Part shown: piece after piece, positions 1,260-9,025 of the stretch
Numbering within the stretch: position 1 is the stretch's first letter
Layout of the letters: the number at the start of each line of letters is the position of its first letter
IMG/VR virus record: IMGVR_UViG_2671180643_000016
Span: 1 to 11,733 of that record
From: a virus
Taxonomy: Duplodnaviria; Heunggongvirae; Uroviricota; Caudoviricetes
DNA: 11,733 nucleotides
Strand: one strand, 5' to 3'
The notes under the pieces: generated by a model
What the model saw: only the letters and a program-made list of their open reading frames with translations
What the model was told of the DNA's origin: nothing
Database searches by the model: none
Position numbers and translations under genes: made by a program

Positions 1260-1919
1260 CTATCCTTCTTGGATTTTGATAAGCGTCAGATTTCCGCAGA
1301 ACACTGCCACTGTGTCGATGTACATCTGGTTTGCATATACCAGTGGGTGATGTGCTGGCGTATGACCGAAGATGAACAGATCGGCACCGGTTATCTCCGA
1401 GACAATACCGTCCTGCGCGTCGCTAATCCGCTCACGATTCCATATCACCATTTCTTCTGGTACTGGCTTATTGAATGCGTATTCGTTGTGCGGGTAGTCT
1501 GCGTGGCAGATGACGACCTTCTTATTGCCGGTAACCAGTTCGATAATCATCGGGAGGTTGGTAATCTTTGGCAGAAGGTATTTGAGTTGCACATCCTGCT
1601 CAGAATCAAGTTGGTGCCACCATCCACCGCCGTTTGACATCCAATGTCCGAAACTTCCGCCGTTGACCAGTGCATCCAGCATCATCTGCTCATGGTTGCC
1701 ACGAACAGCTCGGAACCACGGCATAGCAATCAAATCCAGGCATTCGACGTTTTCAGCGCCGCGGTCAACAAGGTCACCAACGGAAATAAGCAAATCGCGC
1801 GCCGGGTCGAATGAAACTTTGTCGAGTTCGTTCATCAGCAGCGTGTAGCACCCATGCAGATCGCCGACGACGAAGATATTGCACCAGTCAGCGCCATTGA
1901 TGCGTTGATATAGGTTCAT
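1260..1919 (-). CDS. Ser/Thr protein phosphatase, lambda PPase-like metallophosphoesterase
   Basis: Metallophosphoesterase motifs GDLHG, GDLVDRG, GNHE and a C-terminal GHTP; the translation aligns along its length with my recollection of lambda phosphatase. Start ATG 1919 overlaps the upstream stop (ATGA); SD-like GGGAG upstream. The ORF-track start at 2039 is an upstream extension. Confidence 0.85.
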
Positions 1920-3265: not shown

Positions 3266-4207
3266 TTACATAGATGTTTCGTTTAATTCTTCCCGACGAA
3301 CGCTGTAAACGTCGGTGGCTTTTGCCAGCAGTTCGTCATCATCTGAAAGTTTTTGTGCAATGTATTTGTAAGCCTTATCCAGTTCGGAGACAGTGCTGTA
3401 ATTCATCGCTGCGCTGGTAAAGGCCATCAGCATTTCTTCTGGATCACGGCTATCCGCTTTACGCGTTTGCTCATCAGGCTTTTTCACTGTTTTAGCGTTG
3501 ATCAGACTATTCATTCCCGCAGCCGTAGTTGTTTGCGGAGTAATGTCTCGCTCAACGCGCGGTGCCGTTTCCTGTAATTCGTCAGGTGTATAGACGCCCA
3601 TGATTACGTCAGGACAGTGCAAGCGAGACCAGCGTTTTGTCGCAAGGTATGCGAGTTGTTGTTTCGGATCGCTGGCCCAAAGTGTGGAGTTTCTTACCTG
3701 TGCCTGAGACAGCATTAACTCGAGCACTCGAGGTTGATCCTCTCCCTTCATGGTTGCCCATACGCGAACACCGCAGCCTTCTTCGTCTTTTATAGTCCAG
3801 CCTGGTGCGATATACGGATTGCCGTTTTTGGATGTTTTCTCAACAAACTTACCGATCACGCGTTCCCACGGCCCGAACCACTCGTAGTTGATGCGATCTT
3901 TTGTTGGCGACATTGTTGAGATAACTGCGTTTACTAATTGGGCTTCATAACCTAGCGTGCCGTTCACAACATGGGTTTTCTGAGCCACGGCAAACGGGTT
4001 CATTCCCCACTGCGCAGCCTGCATTGCCACGGCCATGCAATCAGCTGGTTTCCCGGCGAGGTGCGCCGGTACCGTTACGCGGCTTTGCGCCATTACCTCG
4101 GCGAATTTCATCAGTTGGTTCAAGCCGTCTGGGCTGAAAATAGTTGCAGCAGTGCCAGCGATTGCTGTGTCTACTGGTGCGTTGATGTTTGCGATGTTGT
4201 TGCTCAT
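3266..4207 (-). CDS. bet: Single-strand annealing protein, Red-beta/Bet-like (RecT/Red-beta superfamily)
   Basis: 313-aa ORF. Several segments resemble lambda Bet as I recall it (QWGMNPF vs QYGLNPW; LWASDPKQQL vs PWQSHPKRML; shared ERDITP). Start ATG overlaps the exonuclease stop (ATGA at 4204-4207); SD AGGA upstream. Confidence 0.75.
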   Translation of the reverse strand: MSNNIANINAPVDTAIAGTAATIFSPDGLNQLMKFAEVMAQSRVTVPAHLAGKPADCMAVAMQAAQWGMNPFAVAQKTHVVNGTLGYEAQLVNAVISTMSPTKDRINYEWFGPWERVIGKFVEKTSKNGNPYIAPGWTIKDEEGCGVRVWATMKGEDQPRVLELMLSQAQVRNSTLWASDPKQQLAYLATKRWSRLHCPDVIMGVYTPDELQETAPRVERDITPQTTTAAGMNSLINAKTVKKPDEQTRKADSRDPEEMLMAFTSAAMNYSTVSELDKAYKYIAQKLSDDDELLAKATDVYSVRREELNETSM

Positions 4208-5025
4208 ATGTACATATCCTGTTTACGTGCCCAGTCAGGGCGTTTAATAATTTCCACGCCACCCCATTCATCATTGATGCGGCATTCGTGATAGGTATTC
4301 AGATCCCGGCGGAACAGAGCGTGCCCGGTATCGACATCCTTCGCATCCAGCTCGAACACGCGTACCGGATACCGACCACAATCAATGCTTTCGCTCACGG
4401 CAAGAAAGAAAAAACCATGCGGCTGACCAGTAACCCTCATTGCGCCTTCACGGTACATTGCGTCCTGCACGTGGTAGCGGAATTCCTCGATGTGGCGAGC
4501 AAAACGATCCATATCTGCAACCTTTTTCACGTCGACGATTACGTTGTGCTCGTTCAGCCATTTGTCTGGACGAATTCGGCACAACTCACCCGTCTCTTCA
4601 TCGTTCCAGTACATTGATGCTTCGCAGTAACCAGGTGCTTCCAGCATCCAGCGTGCCGCCGGGTGAGCCATTGCGCTATCACGCATCAGCTCCAGTTTTC
4701 GCCACTGCTCTGCATCAAGTACCGAAATCCCCATATCCGCTACATCACGAATAAATGCCTCTTCGTCAGCTTTACCTTGTTTTGTCCGACGATCGAATTT
4801 CGGTGAAACGATGAAGCGTTTGTCAAACTCTCTAGGTTCCAGAAGCAGACAGTGCAGAGCAGTACCCATATCCAGTGCAGACTTATTCTCTTCGTCTTCC
4901 GGAGCGGCCTTCACCCATTTCAGAAGGGCAGGGTTCTTAGCCACCATATCTAGCTGCGACTTACTCACGCCGTCACCGGCGTGGTAGTCCTCGTTGCTGA
5001 TATCGAAATAAATTCCCGGATTCAT
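4204..5025 (-). CDS. RecE-like exonuclease (PD-(D/E)XK fold), partner of the annealase
   Basis: 273-aa ORF with a GIYFDISNEDYH N-terminal signature, a D-x-K core (VIVDVKKV) followed by FRYHVQDAMYREG and a C-terminal YHEC, consistent with the RecE C-terminal nuclease-domain family. Start overlaps the upstream stop (ATGA at 5022-5025). Confidence 0.75.
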   Translation of the reverse strand: MNPGIYFDISNEDYHAGDGVSKSQLDMVAKNPALLKWVKAAPEDEENKSALDMGTALHCLLLEPREFDKRFIVSPKFDRRTKQGKADEEAFIRDVADMGISVLDAEQWRKLELMRDSAMAHPAARWMLEAPGYCEASMYWNDEETGELCRIRPDKWLNEHNVIVDVKKVADMDRFARHIEEFRYHVQDAMYREGAMRVTGQPHGFFFLAVSESIDCGRYPVRVFELDAKDVDTGHALFRRDLNTYHECRINDEWGGVEIIKRPDWARKQDMYI

Positions 5026-5494: not shown

Positions 5495-5573
5495 GTTACC
5501 GTTGAGGTAATGATTATGCGTATTTGGTTTGATGTCAATAGATATGAGTTAAAAAAATTACCCATAAGGTAAT
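5495..5573 (-). promoter_or_regulatory. pL-like leftward promoter with two flanking 17-bp operator palindromes
   Basis: Minus-strand -35 TTGACA (5533-5538) with a -10-like CATAAT/TAATCA 14-16 bp downstream. Flanked by GTTACCGTTGAGGTAAT (5495-5511) and ATTACCCATAAGGTAAT (5557-5573); operator centres 62 bp apart. Confidence 0.55.
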
Positions 5574-5580
5574 CTTGATG

Positions 5581-5608
5581 GCAATAAAAAAGCCGCCATG
5601 AGGCGGCT
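5581..5608 (-). terminator. Rho-independent terminator downstream of the repressor gene
   Basis: On the minus strand: stem AGCCGCC, loop UCAU, stem GGCGGCU, followed by UUUUUUAUU; lies 22 bp downstream of the repressor stop (5630-5632). Confidence 0.6.
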
Positions 5609-5629
5609 TACTTACTGAAAAATATGATT

Positions 5630-6214
5630 TTATTGTTTGTTTTTTTCGTTCTGGTTGATGACAAATTCAATGTAACTTTCGATCTTTGCTTTCTCGGGTT
5701 CGGGTAACAATGCGTAGCGCGAGCGGTCATAGTTGATGGTCGCAGGGTCGTGCGGGTGAATCAGTAATTCATAGCCGTGACGCCCGAATGCGGATGCAAC
5801 ATTCTCCAGGGTGGAAATGGAAACGCTGACCTCATTGTTTAACAGGCGGCTGATTGTTACCTGGGCGACGCCGGATGCGCGGTGAAGTTTTCCCTGCGTT
5901 GAAAGGTCGCGGCTTTCGCTCATCCAGCGTTCCAGGTTGTGAGCCGCCAGCTGACCAATGTCGCTTGGGCCGACAGGCTGAAAACCTTCCTGAGAAAGCG
6001 AGCGATCGATATCAAGCCAGTTACGGGGTTTATTGGCGGCAGCTTCAATTTTTCGCGCAACCTGGTCGCCGATAACCTTCTTGCCAAGAGCCCAGCGGTT
6101 TACCAGATTTGCCTGAGTTCCAAGTTTTTCTGCCATCCGCGTCTGAACACCATTGAATTCACGGTCGATCAAGTCGTTGAGATTTTGCCTGCGGACGTCC
6201 TGGATACTTTTCAT
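5630..6214 (-). CDS. Prophage repressor, XRE-type HTH, with a second HTH-like segment and no S24 peptidase domain
   Basis: 194-aa ORF. N-terminal HTH (QTRMAEKLGTQANLVNRWALGKK) resembles 434/P22-type repressors; C-terminal half has another HTH-like stretch (VAQVTISRLLNNEVSVSISTLENVASAFG) and no Ser-Lys/GDSM autocleavage signature. Divergent from the Cro-like gene across an operator region. Confidence 0.7.
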   Translation of the reverse strand: MKSIQDVRRQNLNDLIDREFNGVQTRMAEKLGTQANLVNRWALGKKVIGDQVARKIEAAANKPRNWLDIDRSLSQEGFQPVGPSDIGQLAAHNLERWMSESRDLSTQGKLHRASGVAQVTISRLLNNEVSVSISTLENVASAFGRHGYELLIHPHDPATINYDRSRYALLPEPEKAKIESYIEFVINQNEKNKQ

Positions 6215-6268
6215 TTTCTGGAAAATCGCCTCATATATGAATCAGTAGATGATTCAATTTAAAGCAAT

Positions 6269-6333
6269 ATTACCCAACAGGTAAATGCACCCCATAGGTA
6301 ACTATCCTTGATTTTTGTTACCTTATGGGTGAA
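6269..6333. promoter_or_regulatory. OR-like tripartite operator region with divergent promoters
   Basis: Three 17-bp sites of the ATTACC-N5-GGTAAT family: ATTACCCAACAGGTAAA (6269-6285), weaker TGCACCCCATAGGTAAC (6286-6302), GTTACCTTATGGGTGAA (6317-6333). Candidate rightward promoter -35 TTGTTA (6315-6320), 17-bp spacer, -10 TATTAT (6338-6343). Confidence 0.55.
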
Positions 6334-6368
6334 TATTTATTATCTGAAATAAATATCAGGCAATAGCT

Positions 6369-6599
6369 ATGAGCGATAACGGACATTTCGATTTCAAAAA
6401 GCACTGGCTTGCACTTACTCCGGATGAGCGTGAAGCCTTCGCACAGGAAGCCGGAACGACGAGTCACTATATCCAGACTCACTTAACAGGTAAGCGCAAA
6501 ATGCCAGGTAAGGTATTGATGAATGGGCTTTTTAAAGCCTGTAAAACAAGACAATGGCTGCGCTCAAAAGCAGAACTGGCATACTTCTTCTACTCATGA
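6369..6599 (+). CDS. Cro-like small DNA-binding regulator (putative)
   Basis: 76-aa ORF divergent from the repressor, directly downstream of the operators, with a possible HTH (REAFAQEAGTTSHYIQTHL). AGG 8 nt upstream of the ATG; followed by a terminator. Confidence 0.55.
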   Translation: MSDNGHFDFKKHWLALTPDEREAFAQEAGTTSHYIQTHLTGKRKMPGKVLMNGLFKACKTRQWLRSKAELAYFFYS

Positions 6600-6620: not shown

Positions 6621-6644
6621 AGACCGCCATCCGGCGGTCTTTTC
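6621..6644 (+). terminator. Rho-independent terminator after the Cro-like gene (tR1-like position)
   Basis: Stem AGACCGCC (6621-6628), loop ATCC, stem GGCGGTCT (6633-6640), then TTTT. Confidence 0.6.
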
Positions 6645-6749
6645 ATATCTATTCGCACCTCAAAGGTAATAAAAAACCAAATGTGGTTGATCTTTTTTTT
6701 GTGTCAGCACAAAATGACCGTAATCCCAATACTAATAACAGGGCTTACC

Positions 6750-6965: not shown

Positions 6966-7781
6966 ATGAGCAGACATGCAACAGATTGGGCTTGGGAGAC
7001 AGATCCAGGCAGCTCATCATTAAAGCTCATACTGCTCTCGATGGCTGACAGAGCCGATGAATATAACCTCTGCTACCCCAGCATAGAACGCCTCGTTAAA
7101 GACACTTGCCTGAATAAAAAAACCGTGCAGGCCGGGCTTATATCGCTCATGAAAATGGGGCTTATTTCAGATACCGGAGAGAGAAAGGGAGCGACAAAAA
7201 GAGTGCGGGTTTTCTCTCTTAATATAACCAAAAACGGGAACATTAAAGGCAACCTAGATGGGTGTAATGAACCCGAAAACGGTAATGTTCCCGAAAACGG
7301 GAATATACCCAAAAACGGGATGTTGAATGATCCCAAAAACGGGATGTTGAATGATCCCAAAAACGGGATCCAGAACCAGTCATATAACCAGTCATTTAAC
7401 CAAGAGAGGGAGAGCAGGACAAAAACCGGGGATTCTGTGCCTCATGACCCCGGCGCAAACAACGCCGTGATGAATAACTTTGTTCCTCCTGGTGGGCCAG
7501 GGCAATTAGGCAAATTTGTCATGCATGAACAATGGCAGCCATCAGATGACTTTCTTCGGAAAAGCTCATTGCAGGGGATCTACCTGGACAGTCTGCCAAC
7601 GGCACAGGAACTTGCAGAGTTCAGAATTTACTGGATGGCTGAGGGTAAGGCATACCATCAGGCACAGTGGGAGCAGAAGCTGGCAAGGCGGCTGCAGATT
7701 AGCAGACAGAAGCAATCAACATTACCTGATAACAACGTTCCGCACTGGAACAGCCCTGAAGCATGGGAGGATTTCTTGTGA
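6966..7781 (+). CDS. Replication initiation protein (lambda O functional analogue; N-terminal winged-helix-like, C-terminal DnaT-like)
   Basis: 271-aa ORF. N-terminal HTH-like region (LKLILLSMADRADEYNLCYPSIERLVKDTCLNKKTVQAGLISLMKMGLI), repetitive linker encoded by the iterons, C-terminal FRIYWMAEGKAYHQAQWEQKLARRL. Immediately upstream of the P-like gene with overlapping stop/start. Confidence 0.75.
   Translation: MSRHATDWAWETDPGSSSLKLILLSMADRADEYNLCYPSIERLVKDTCLNKKTVQAGLISLMKMGLISDTGERKGATKRVRVFSLNITKNGNIKGNLDGCNEPENGNVPENGNIPKNGMLNDPKNGMLNDPKNGIQNQSYNQSFNQERESRTKTGDSVPHDPGANNAVMNNFVPPGGPGQLGKFVMHEQWQPSDDFLRKSSLQGIYLDSLPTAQELAEFRIYWMAEGKAYHQAQWEQKLARRLQISRQKQSTLPDNNVPHWNSPEAWEDFL
7227..7369. 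repeat. Iteron array inside the replication initiator gene (putative ori)
   Basis: Direct repeats with core CC(C)(A/G)AAAACGG(G/T)A at 7227-7241, 7271-7286, 7289-7304, 7307-7321, 7331-7345, 7355-7369, spaced 18, 18, 24 and 24 bp. Includes an exact 24-bp tandem duplication GATGTTGAATGATCCCAAAAACGG (7319-7342 and 7343-7366). Confidence 0.6.
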
Positions 7782-8599: not shown

Positions 8600-8678
8600 A
8601 TTACCTTATAGGTAATAAAATATTCTAATTTCTATTGATTTTATGTCTTATGTGGTTTTTAATTACCTAAGGGGTAAA
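8600..8678 (+). promoter_or_regulatory. Operator-flanked promoter upstream of the DUF1064-like gene (same architecture as pL)
   Basis: ATTACCTTATAGGTAAT (8600-8616; perfect palindrome) and ATTACCTAAGGGGTAAA (8662-8678) flank -35 TTGATT (8635-8640), 17-bp spacer, -10 TTTAAT (8658-8663). Operator centres are 62 bp apart, as at pL. Confidence 0.55.
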
Positions 8679-8680
8679 TC

Positions 8681-9025
8681 ATGAGAAAACAGATACAGGC
8701 TCTTGGTCGACTCAAAACAGGCCAGATGAACAAAACAGAATCTGCGTATTGCCAGCACCTTGAGCTGCGTAAACGTGCAGGAGAAATCGTCTGGTATCGA
8801 TTTGAGGGTATCAAGTTGCGGTTAGCTGACAACACGTTCTATACGCCCGATTTTGCTGTGATGCTCGCCACCGGCGAGATGGAACTGCACGAAGTGAAAG
8901 GTTTCTGGACCGACGACGCCAGGGTGAAAACCAAAGTCGCCGCAGATCAGTATCCGTTCCGAATCATCGGGGTAACGGTTAAGCCAAAGAAAGCAGGTGG
9001 TGGCTGGAACATCGAAGAGTTCTGA
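8681..9025 (+). CDS. DUF1064-like phage protein, probable PD-(D/E)XK nuclease fold
   Basis: 114-aa ORF with D...E-x-K-like arrangement (TPDFAV ... ELHEVKG). SD AAGGGG upstream of ATG 8681. Family assignment is from memory. Confidence 0.6.
   Translation: MRKQIQALGRLKTGQMNKTESAYCQHLELRKRAGEIVWYRFEGIKLRLADNTFYTPDFAVMLATGEMELHEVKGFWTDDARVKTKVAADQYPFRIIGVTVKPKKAGGGWNIEEF

What the first reader, a model, noticed from the sequence alone, without database searches (positions are those of the whole stretch)
5495..6333. Operator family ATTACC-N5-GGTAAT defines the immunity region: two sites at pL, three at OR
Seven related 17-bp sites occur in the window, all in intergenic regulatory DNA: 5495-5511, 5557-5573, 6269-6285, 6286-6302 (weak), 6317-6333, 8600-8616, 8662-8678. 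The OR arrangement (two strong outer sites, one weaker inner site, divergent promoters) resembles the lambda OR1-3 logic but with a different half-site. This gives a sequence-derived operator consensus usable to predict immunity specificity.
Basis: seen in the sequence. Interest (0 to 1): 0.5.

Follow-up and report, generated by a model that had tools for sequence, protein, structure and literature searches.

The report
Repressor operators of a phiV10-like prophage
The repeated ATTACC-N5-GGTAAT palindromes are real and are almost certainly the binding sites of the prophage's repressor, but the same motif is already annotated in the sister phage epsilon15, so this is a correct and essentially known finding.

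Summary
The core TTACC-N5-GGTAA occurs 6 times in 11.7 kb with at most 1 mismatch, against 0.21 expected, always in intergenic DNA. Host DNA has 0 perfect copies in 107 kb.

The window is the early region of a phiV10-like (Uetakevirus, epsilon15-like) prophage found in about 10% of complete E. coli genomes. The divergent 194-aa repressor is a full-length homologue of the crystallised SPC32H Rep. That protein is a non-cleavable tetramer inactivated by a LexA-controlled antirepressor.

The sites sit at orthologous positions in five Uetakeviruses from four host genera. The half-sites are invariant while the N5 spacers and flanks vary. In 80 near-identical prophages, 0 of 50 half-site positions are polymorphic against 9 of 25 N5 positions.

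The epsilon15 RefSeq record already labels these palindromes "protein_bind: repressor".

- The motif does not delimit the immunity region. The 8600/8662 pair brackets a third promoter built like pL, and further sites precede int, terS, portal, tailspike and lysis genes.
- The repressor is not lambda-CI-like.
- The half-site is shared across the genus, so it cannot separate immunity groups within it.

Direct binding was not testable here.

The parts
5495..5511 (.). OL proximal operator (GTTACC GTTGA GGTAAT). It overlaps the last 2 nt of the pL -10 and covers the predicted start site.
   Evidence: half-sites non-polymorphic
5510..5538 (-). pL candidate promoter: -35 TTGACA (5538-5533), 17-nt spacer, -10 AATCAT (5515-5510). 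It drives the leftward early operon (small ORFs, RecE-like, RecT, AlpA-like, PerC-like, methylase).
   Evidence: 10 of 12 matches; CTATTGACA is invariant in five phages
5557..5573 (.). OL distal operator (perfect ATTACC CATAA GGTAAT), 18 nt upstream of the pL -35 and 62 bp from the proximal site.
5590..5609 (-). Intrinsic terminator after the repressor gene.
   Evidence: annotated in phiV10
5630..6214 (-). Repressor (Rep), 194 aa: N-terminal HTH DNA-binding domain, a middle HTH-like dimerisation domain, and a C-terminal tetramerisation/Ant-binding domain.
   Evidence: (E=3.9e-42 to PDB 5D50 over residues 1-190); domain roles from PMC9986798
6269..6285 (.). OR site A (ATTACC CAACA GGTAAA), nearest to rep. 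It overlaps a candidate rep promoter (-35 TTTACC 6285-6280, -10 TTAAAT 6262-6257, read by eye).
   Evidence: the promoter assignment is inference only
6286..6302 (.). OR site B, abutting A. Degenerate here (TGCACC CCATA GGTAAC) but strong in epsilon15, SPC32H and BUCT711.
6308..6343 (+). pR candidate promoter region. TTGATT (6308-6313) is invariant in five phages. The scan's alternative is TTGTTA (6315-6320), 17 nt, TATTAT (6338-6343).
6317..6333 (.). OR site C (GTTACC TTATG GGTGAA), lying inside the pR core promoter, 31 bp from B.
6369..6599 (+). Cro-like 76-aa protein, first gene of the rightward operon. It has an HTH-like segment, AGTTSHYIQTHLT, invariant in five phages.
   Evidence: no Pfam hit
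6621..6640 (+). Intrinsic terminator after the cro-like gene.
   Evidence: annotated in phiV10
6654..6670 (.). Weak, positionally conserved eighth site (CGCACC TCAAA GGTAAT). It may be the distal site of a degenerate third copy of the promoter module (-35 TTGATC 6687-6692, -10 CAAAAT 6710-6715).
   Evidence: the module reading is low-confidence inference
8600..8616 (.). P3 distal operator (perfect ATTACC TTATA GGTAAT), following a conserved GC hairpin plus T7 after the P gene.
   Evidence: the orthologous epsilon15 site is annotated as repressor-binding
8635..8663 (+). P3 promoter-like element: TTGATT (8635-8640), 17 nt, TTTAAT (8658-8663). Its geometry is the same as pL, but it is not called by the consensus scan.
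   Evidence: not called; pL and P3 modules align without gaps, 50 of 79 identical
8662..8678 (.). P3 proximal operator (ATTACC TAAGG GGTAAA). Its N5 carries the Shine-Dalgarno sequence of the DUF1064 gene (ATG at 8681).

Best explanation
The 17-bp palindromes are the operators of the prophage repressor Rep (5630-6214, minus strand), read by its N-terminal helix-turn-helix domain (recognition helix QANLVNRW).

Proposed action at each promoter:
- At OR, site C sits inside the pR core promoter and blocks transcription of the cro-like and replication operon. Sites A and B lie over and just upstream of the likely rep promoter and would give autoregulation.
- At pL and at a third promoter before the DUF1064 gene, two operators 62 bp apart bracket the -35 and -10 elements, and the proximal one overlaps the -10 and the start site.

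By homology with SPC32H Rep, the protein is a tetramer with two DNA-binding units. One tetramer could therefore hold both operators of a pair and occlude the promoter between them.

Induction would not involve repressor cleavage. A small LexA-controlled antirepressor (Ant), encoded elsewhere in the prophage, would bind Rep and release it.

Shown here: the sites, their conservation, their overlap with promoter-like elements, the Rep homology, and the presence of Ant with a LexA box in a nearly identical prophage.

Inferred: physical binding, bridging by a tetramer, and the autoregulation logic.
For: - Enrichment: 6 hits against 0.21 expected; none perfect in 107 kb of host DNA.
- Location: all hits are intergenic and next to or inside promoter-like elements.
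- Orthology: sites sit at orthologous positions in phiV10, Tyrion, BUCT711, epsilon15 and SPC32H. Half-site columns are invariant while the N5 and flanks differ.
- Population data: 0 of 50 half-site positions are polymorphic, against 9 of 25 N5 positions (Fisher p=1.6e-5) and 37 of 257 for all other intergenic positions, N5 included (p=0.0014).
- Repressor: Rep matches PDB 5D50/5D4Z 'Repressor' of SPC32H over its full length. Its recognition helix NLVNRW is invariant across the five phages.
- Prior annotation: the epsilon15 RefSeq record annotates the same palindromes as 'protein_bind, repressor, lysogeny'.
- Distant homologues: repressors with a homologous N-terminal domain but other C-terminal domains carry related palindromes upstream. 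PseuP_224 has TTACC-N4-GGTAA twice, JBD68 is similar, Turba has TAACC-N5-GGTTA, and an Acinetobacter phage with a different helix has TACTA palindromes.
- Literature: Rep binds palindromic sites as a tetramer and Ant disassembles it (PMC9638917 and PMC9986798 citing Kim et al. 2016).
- Induction circuit: an Ant homologue (about 85% identical to SPC32H Ant, counted by eye from the printed alignment) and the LexA box CTGTATATTTATACAG are present in a prophage with a 99.9% identical immunity region.
Against: - No binding experiment for the phiV10-type Rep was found in the held library, including the vB_EcoP_ZX5 paper. I could not read the primary SPC32H and epsilon15 papers, so I do not know which sites were footprinted.
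- The epsilon15 annotation may itself be a prediction.
- The cro-like protein is equally conserved and could bind the same sites.
- The P3 -10 (TTTAAT) lacks the conserved A at position 2, and the scan does not call it.
- Match to the consensus (A strongest, B weakest) does not fit a lambda-like affinity hierarchy, so the OR logic is uncertain.
- Haplotypes in the polymorphism test are phylogenetically related, so the p-values are only indicative.
Confidence: 0.85

Rival explanations
1. The palindromes are bound mainly, or also, by the 76-aa cro-like protein (6369-6599). It would act as the lytic-phase repressor at the same operators, as Cro does in lambda. As an exclusive reading, Rep would recognise something else.
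For: - The cro-like protein has an HTH-like segment that is invariant across the five phages, as are the half-sites.
- It is the first gene of pR, next to the OR sites.
- Shared operators for CI and Cro are the rule in lambdoid switches (established knowledge).
Against: - Sites in front of late structural and lysis operons and int make sense for a lysogenic silencer rather than a lytic-phase protein.
- The TTACC half-site recurs upstream of PseuP_224 CI. Its N-terminal domain is homologous to Rep (E=1e-12), while its divergent cro-like gene shows no BLASTP similarity to this one.
- The epsilon15 annotators assigned the sites to the repressor.
- Shared binding by both proteins is not excluded. 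I put that at about 0.35. The confidence given here is for the exclusive version.
Confidence: 0.05
2. The motif is the site of another phage or host regulator, for example an activator of middle and late promoters bound upstream of the -35. It would be unrelated to lysogenic repression.
For: - Distal sites lie 18 nt upstream of the -35, a typical activator position.
- Single sites precede late operons.
- The P3 -10 is poor, as expected of an activator-dependent promoter.
- The window also encodes PerC-like and AlpA-like regulators.
Against: - Proximal sites overlap the -10 and start site at pL and P3, and site C lies within the pR core promoter. These are repressor positions.
- The densest cluster flanks the rep gene itself.
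- Related palindromes track with Rep N-terminal-domain homologues in unrelated phages.
Confidence: 0.05
3. The sites are chance AT-rich palindromes or by-products of promoter sequences, with no dedicated binding protein.
For: - Intergenic DNA is AT-rich.
- The weak sites (6286, 6654) are individually no better than background two-mismatch hits.
Against: - Zero of 200 dinucleotide-preserving shuffles reach the observed count.
- Half-sites are invariant across phages whose surrounding DNA has diverged.
- There is no polymorphism in the half-sites while the N5 is hypervariable.
Confidence: 0.01

Closest known systems
Epsilon15 repressor-binding sites as annotated in RefSeq NC_004775 (Kropinski et al. 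2007 genome)
   Same: The 17-bp consensus ATTACC-N5-GGTAAT is the same. The positions are the same: OL, the region before the gene after the replication genes, and upstream of terS, the portal operon and the tail fibre gene. The genus and synteny are the same.
   Different: - Epsilon15 has three OL sites (spacings 76 and 62 bp) against two here.
- Its OR sites are not annotated, although they are present.
- Its inner OR site is strong and its cro-proximal one weaker, the reverse of this window.
- The repressors are only about 42-43% identical.
SPC32H Rep/Ant lytic switch (Kim & Ryu 2013; Kim et al. 2016; PDB 5D50, 5D4Z)
   Same: - Rep is a full-length homologue (E=3.9e-42) with a DBD, a dimerisation domain and a tetramerisation/Ant-binding domain.
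- The operator motif sits at the same positions in the SPC32H genome.
- An Ant homologue and a LexA box are present in the same prophage type.
   Different: - Rep is 42% identical. The middle and linker regions diverge.
- The E. coli phage has not been tested biochemically in any paper I could read.
- I could not check which SPC32H sites were shown to bind, because the papers are not held.
Lambda OR1-3/OL1-3 with CI and Cro
   Same: Three operators lie between divergent repressor and cro-like genes. There are operators at a leftward early promoter. The sites are 17-bp partially symmetric.
   Different: - There is no S24 autocleavage domain; induction is by an antirepressor.
- The repressor is a tetramer with trans-paired DNA-binding domains.
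- OR spacings are 17 and 31 bp rather than 24 and 23.
- Operator pairs bracket the promoters at 62 bp.
- Operators also lie in front of late operons.
pLS20 Rco (TetDloop tetramer that represses by DNA looping)
   Same: The architecture is an N-terminal HTH plus a C-terminal p53-like tetramerisation domain. It is relieved by an antirepressor-type partner. It binds multiple separated operators (PMC9986798).
   Different: It is an unrelated replicon (a Bacillus plasmid) with different operator sequences and a much longer loop. Rep has an extra middle dimerisation domain.
CI-type repressors of Pseudomonas phages PseuP_224 and JBD68
   Same: [quoted passage not shown] The TTACC/GGTAA half-sites upstream of the gene are the same.
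   Different: The spacer is N4 rather than N5. Two clear palindromes lie about 39 bp apart upstream of the gene, with a more degenerate candidate between them in PseuP_224. The PseuP_224 C-terminal part looks like a LexA/S24-type cleavage domain by eye (not scanned against Pfam). The recognition helix is SANYISRC.

Membership tests
Uetakevirus (epsilon15/SPC32H-type) Rep operator system | An adjacent repressor homologous to SPC32H Rep over its full length (DBD, dimerisation domain, tetramerisation/Ant-binding domain) | tested here: met
   phmmer E=3.9e-42, query residues 1-190 against chain residues 2-197 of 5D50. Two HTH-type Pfam hits. Alignment.
Uetakevirus (epsilon15/SPC32H-type) Rep operator system | 17-bp hyphenated palindrome ATTACC-N5-GGTAAT, as annotated 'protein_bind repressor' in epsilon15 | tested here: met
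   Same consensus in the window and at the annotated epsilon15 sites.
Uetakevirus (epsilon15/SPC32H-type) Rep operator system | Sites at orthologous positions (OL, OR, and before the gene following the replication genes) in syntenic genomes | tested here: met
   Scans and alignments of five phages. The 62-bp pair spacing is conserved at the OL and P3 pairs (63 bp at BUCT711 OL).
Uetakevirus (epsilon15/SPC32H-type) Rep operator system | Induction by a small antirepressor whose promoter carries a LexA box, with no repressor autocleavage domain | tested here: met
   No Peptidase_S24 hit in Rep. The Ant homologue and CTGTATATTTATACAG were found in prophage L006, whose immunity region is 99.9% identical. 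The ant locus itself lies outside the window.
Uetakevirus (epsilon15/SPC32H-type) Rep operator system | Tetramer-interface aromatic residues (Phe187 and Phe190 in SPC32H Rep) | tested here: inconclusive
   The aligned residues are Tyr and Phe (SYIEFV against SFINFV; residue roles from PMC9986798). The change is conservative, but the oligomeric state was not tested.
Uetakevirus (epsilon15/SPC32H-type) Rep operator system | Physical, sequence-specific binding of Rep to the palindromes | not testable with these tools
   This needs EMSA, footprinting or ChIP. The primary SPC32H papers are not held.
Lambda-type CI/Cro tripartite operator switch | Three operators between divergently transcribed repressor and cro genes | tested here: met
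   Sites at 6269, 6286 and 6317 lie between rep (ends at 6214) and the cro-like gene (starts at 6369).
Lambda-type CI/Cro tripartite operator switch | Repressor with a C-terminal S24/LexA-like autocleavage and dimerisation domain | tested here: not met
   No such domain in Pfam. The C-terminal part matches the SPC32H Rep MDD/CAD.
Lambda-type CI/Cro tripartite operator switch | Roughly even spacing of adjacent operators (about 23-24 bp centre to centre) allowing pairwise dimer cooperativity | tested here: not met
   Spacings are 17 bp (A-B, abutting) and 31 bp (B-C).

The most novel reading that the evidence does not exclude
The conserved 62-bp operator pairs that bracket pL and P3, and the 30-31-bp B-C pair at OR, may be the DNA counterpart of the Rep tetramer's two trans-assembled DNA-binding units. 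One tetramer would clamp each promoter from both sides.

With about 12-15 sites per genome in front of every operon, a single repressor would directly silence the whole phage, late genes included.

Because the operator code and the Ant protein are shared across E. coli, Salmonella, Klebsiella and Enterobacter Uetakeviruses, the whole genus would form one immunity and cross-induction group. That is unlike the mosaic immunity types of lambdoid phages.
Probability: 0.3. Interest if true: 0.4.

Novelty: already known. Interest (0 to 1): 0.2.

Why it matters
This prophage type sits at guaA in about one in ten complete E. coli genomes, including O157 strains and ETEC H10407, and its relatives modify the O antigen. 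Knowing its operators lets one read its transcription units. It also predicts which genes stay silent in the lysogen and supports the design of reporters or derepression mutants.

The practical message for the scan is that the consensus is correct but is the genus-wide epsilon15/SPC32H Rep operator. It is not a new immunity specificity and not a marker of the immunity region alone.

Tried and rejected
- Primary papers. I tried to read Kropinski 2007 (DOI and PMC2698709), Kim & Ryu 2013 (PMC3807360) and Kim et al. 2016 (PMC4983836). None is held. What is known about Rep binding therefore comes from citing papers and from GenBank annotation.
- Full-text search for the motif letters returned only unrelated papers. 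Searches on phiV10, epsilon15 or Uetakevirus plus operator found no operator definition for phiV10-like phages.
- The word-indexed protein search with the Rep N-terminal domain returned only fragments of the same protein.
- The search for related loci returned 80 loci with 99% identical Rep. They were useless for covariation, so I used them for the polymorphism test instead.
- My first polymorphism script failed on an off-by-3 length. The ungapped version was contaminated by indel-shifted haplotypes. I replaced it with a MAFFT-based count.
- I first read Rep as having two DNA-binding HTH domains per monomer and rejected that. The second HTH-like domain is the dimerisation domain in SPC32H Rep.
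- I first placed a degenerate third promoter module after the cro-like gene's terminator at 62-bp spacing. Recounting gives 60 bp and only a half-site match, so it stays a low-confidence note.
- The consensus scan does not call a sigma-70 promoter at P3. The promoter reading there rests on gap-free alignment with the pL module.

Full report
**What is in the sequence**

The six robust sites share the core TTACC-N5-GGTAA. Five are perfect: 5495, 5557, 6269, 8600 and 8662. One, 6317, has a single mismatch. A dinucleotide-preserving shuffle expects 0.21 such hits, and none of 200 shuffles reaches six. The looser 17-mer search gives 13 hits against 3.9 expected.

In 107.5 kb of host chromosome outside this prophage there is no perfect core and there are four one-mismatch hits.

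All sites lie between ORFs.

The seventh site, 6286-6302, has two core mismatches and would not stand alone. Two-mismatch hits occur about 33 times per 50 kb of host DNA.

**What the window is**

The immunity region is 98% identical to Escherichia phage phiV10 (genus Uetakevirus, epsilon15-like podoviruses). It occurs in 561 of 5426 complete E. coli genomes. In strain 2013C-4538 the prophage lies at the 3' end of guaA.

The window runs from the integrase through the leftward recombination operon, the repressor, a cro-like gene, and the DnaT-like and lambda-P-like replication genes, into the variable ea-type region.

**The repressor**

The ORF at 5630-6214 (minus strand, 194 aa) has no S24 peptidase domain. 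It has two HTH-type Pfam matches. It aligns over its whole length with the crystallised repressor of Salmonella phage SPC32H (PDB 5D50 and 5D4Z, E=3.9e-42).

Papers citing that work give the following account (PMC9986798 and PMC9638917):
- Rep has an N-terminal DNA-binding domain, a middle dimerisation domain and a C-terminal tetramerisation domain that also binds the antirepressor Ant.
- It binds palindromic sites as a tetramer. The paired DNA-binding domains come from different dimers.
- Ant breaks the tetramer.

In a prophage whose immunity region is 99.9% identical to the window there is an Ant homologue. It is about 85% identical to SPC32H Ant, counted by eye from the printed alignment. 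It is preceded by a canonical LexA box, CTGTATATTTATACAG. That locus is outside the window.

**Conservation**

I scanned phiV10, Enterobacter phage Tyrion, Klebsiella phage BUCT711, epsilon15 and SPC32H. Their repressors are 78%, 44%, 43% and 43% identical to this one. All carry the same half-sites at orthologous places:
- two or three sites at OL
- three at OR
- a weak one after the cro-like gene's terminator
- two before the gene that follows the replication genes

In alignments of these intergenic regions the TTACC and GGTAA columns are invariant, while the N5 spacers and most flanking DNA differ. The weak site 6286-6302 aligns exactly with a strong site in epsilon15, SPC32H and BUCT711. 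It is therefore a real but degenerate ortholog.

Within 80 IMG/VR prophages with a 99% identical Rep, the polymorphic positions were counted in the OL and OR intergenic regions:

| Position class | Polymorphic | Total |
|---|---|---|
| Half-site | 0 | 50 |
| N5 spacer | 9 | 25 |
| Other intergenic | 28 | 222 |

Fisher p is 1.6e-5 for half-sites against N5, and 0.0014 for half-sites against all other positions. The haplotypes are related, so these values are indicative only.

**Already annotated elsewhere**

The epsilon15 RefSeq record labels these palindromes "protein_bind, repressor, lysogeny". It does so at OL, before the Holliday-junction resolvase gene, before terS, before the portal operon and before the tail fibre gene. 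The phiV10 record annotates only terminators. The one paper I could read on a phiV10-like repressor, vB_EcoP_ZX5, defines no operator. The motif is therefore known for the genus, though not spelled out for this phage.

**Anatomy and likely mechanism**

pL is a good sigma-70 match on the minus strand: TTGACA at 5538-5533, a 17-nt spacer, and AATCAT at 5515-5510. The distal operator lies 18 nt upstream of the -35. The proximal operator overlaps the last two bases of the -10. The operators are 62 bp apart.

The region at 8600-8678 aligns with the pL module without gaps, 50 of 79 bases identical. It has the same operator-to-hexamer distances, with TTGATT at 8635-8640 and TTTAAT at 8658-8663, and it follows a conserved GC hairpin plus T7 after the P gene. 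I read it as a third Rep-controlled promoter, P3, for the DUF1064 gene and the genes downstream. The consensus scan does not call it, because its -10 lacks the A at position 2.

The 62-bp spacing is kept in all five phages at both places, apart from 63 bp at BUCT711 OL.

At OR, site C lies inside the pR core promoter. TTGATT at 6308-6313 is invariant, and the scan's alternative is TTGTTA, 17 nt, TATTAT. Site A covers a plausible rep promoter that I read by eye. Site B abuts A and lies 31 bp from C.

Rep is a tetramer with two DNA-binding units whose neighbouring dimerisation domains are about 100 angstroms apart. I infer that one tetramer can hold two operators. B and C are about 105 angstroms apart on straight DNA, so they might be spanned without looping. 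The 62-bp pairs would need DNA bending. This step is inference, not shown.

**Who reads the motif**

The cro-like protein is as conserved as Rep, so conservation within the genus cannot separate the two. I therefore looked at repressors that share only the Rep N-terminal domain:

| Phage and repressor | Recognition helix | Palindromes upstream of the gene |
|---|---|---|
| Uetakevirus Rep (this window) | QANLVNRW | TTACC-N5-GGTAA |
| Pseudomonas phage PseuP_224 CI (39% over 71 aa, E=1e-12) | SANYISRC | two TTACC-N4-GGTAA |
| Pseudomonas phage JBD68 gp44 | APSYVSRC | ATAACC tcta GGTAAC and TTTACC tata GGTTCC |
| Pseudomonas phage Turba CI | SQAQVSSF | TAACC-N5-GGTTA (one perfect copy plus a weaker TCACC-N5-GGTTA) |
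| Acinetobacter phage MD-2021a repressor | AAAYLSQI | TACTA palindromes |

The PseuP_224 C-terminal part looks S24-like by eye. Its divergent cro-like gene gives no BLASTP alignment with this window's cro-like protein, although by eye both share a G-T-T-x-x-Y pattern.

This small series links the half-site to the Rep-type DNA-binding domain. It does not exclude the cro-like protein using the same sites.

**Beyond the immunity region**

In the whole prophage the motif also occurs at these places:
- 42 bp upstream of the int start
- twice immediately before the terS start
- before the portal operon
- in the ant/tailspike intergenic region (a perfect copy)
- before the holin genes (a perfect copy)

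The same is true in epsilon15, SPC32H, Tyrion and BUCT711. Twelve of twelve hits in the E. coli prophage and 14 of 15 in epsilon15 are intergenic. The motif therefore marks the promoters of the whole phage, not the borders of the immunity region.

**Verdict**

The operator interpretation is well supported by sequence evidence, at confidence about 0.85.

The lambda analogy is only topological. The claim that the consensus predicts immunity specificity fails within this genus, because all members share it.

The finding is ordinary in that it rediscovers an annotated motif of a structurally characterised repressor family. Three details may not be in the literature and are modest leads: the conserved 62-bp promoter-bracketing module, the hypervariable N5, and the reuse of the same reading head with an N4 spacer on what look like S24-type repressors.

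Noticed in passing
L006 (E. coli 2013C-4538 prophage) 3492-3508, 17379-17413, 20544-20560, 37161-17177 region (37161-37177), 41872-41888; all outside the window: The same palindrome occurs in front of int, terS (two adjacent copies), the portal operon, the ant/tailspike intergenic region and the holin genes. The pattern is conserved in epsilon15, SPC32H, Tyrion and BUCT711. This suggests one repressor directly controls every operon, late genes included.
   Followed up: partly
window 7228-7368: There is an iteron-like array inside the DnaT-like replication gene: six copies of CC[CG]AAAACGG[GT]A, against 0.22 expected, including 2.6 perfect 24-bp tandem units. It is probably the phage replication origin, as in lambda O.
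   Followed up: partly
window 5563-5567, 6292-6296, 6327 (the N5 spacers of the operators): Among 80 near-identical prophages the N5 spacers are the most polymorphic intergenic positions (9 of 25, against 28 of 222 elsewhere), while the half-sites never vary. This may be simple lack of constraint or tuning of operator strength.
   Followed up: partly
L093 2421-2475 (Pseudomonas phage PseuP_224); L095 1427-1481 (JBD68); L094 1405-1500 (Turba): Repressors sharing only the Rep N-terminal domain carry related palindromes upstream of their genes: TTACC-N4-GGTAA in PseuP_224 and JBD68, and TAACC-N5-GGTTA in Turba. The same DNA-reading head seems to be used on different oligomerisation and induction domains, with a one-base change in spacer.
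   Followed up: partly
L006 36828-37122 (outside the window): There is an Ant antirepressor homologue, about 85% identical to SPC32H Ant (counted by eye from the alignment), with a canonical LexA box CTGTATATTTATACAG upstream. A perfect Rep-type palindrome lies 39 bp further on. Ant is far better conserved than Rep, which is 42% identical.
   Followed up: partly
window 8662-8681: The proximal P3 operator carries the Shine-Dalgarno sequence of the DUF1064 gene in its N5 (TAAGG, with ATG at 8681). Relatives have GAGAGG or AAGAGG there. If the -10 assignment is right, the 5' leader is only about 10 nt.
   Followed up: no
window 6654-6730: This may be a degenerate third copy of the operator-bracketed promoter module, after the cro-like gene's terminator. 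It has a weak distal site, TTGATC 6687-6692 and CAAAAT 6710-6715. The proximal candidate ATGACC GTAAT CCCAAT lies at 60 bp. Many indels occur here in the population.
   Followed up: partly
L006 17334-17415: The RefSeq start of the small terminase (17334) lies upstream of an intrinsic terminator and two operator copies. By comparison with epsilon15 and Tyrion, the real start is probably the ATG at about 17415.
   Followed up: no
window 1260-1919 and 3266-5025: The left arm is mosaic relative to phiV10. A Ser/Thr phosphatase gene replaces the DUF1382 gene. RecT and the RecE-like nuclease are separate ORFs here, while phiV10 annotates a single RecET fusion.
   Followed up: no
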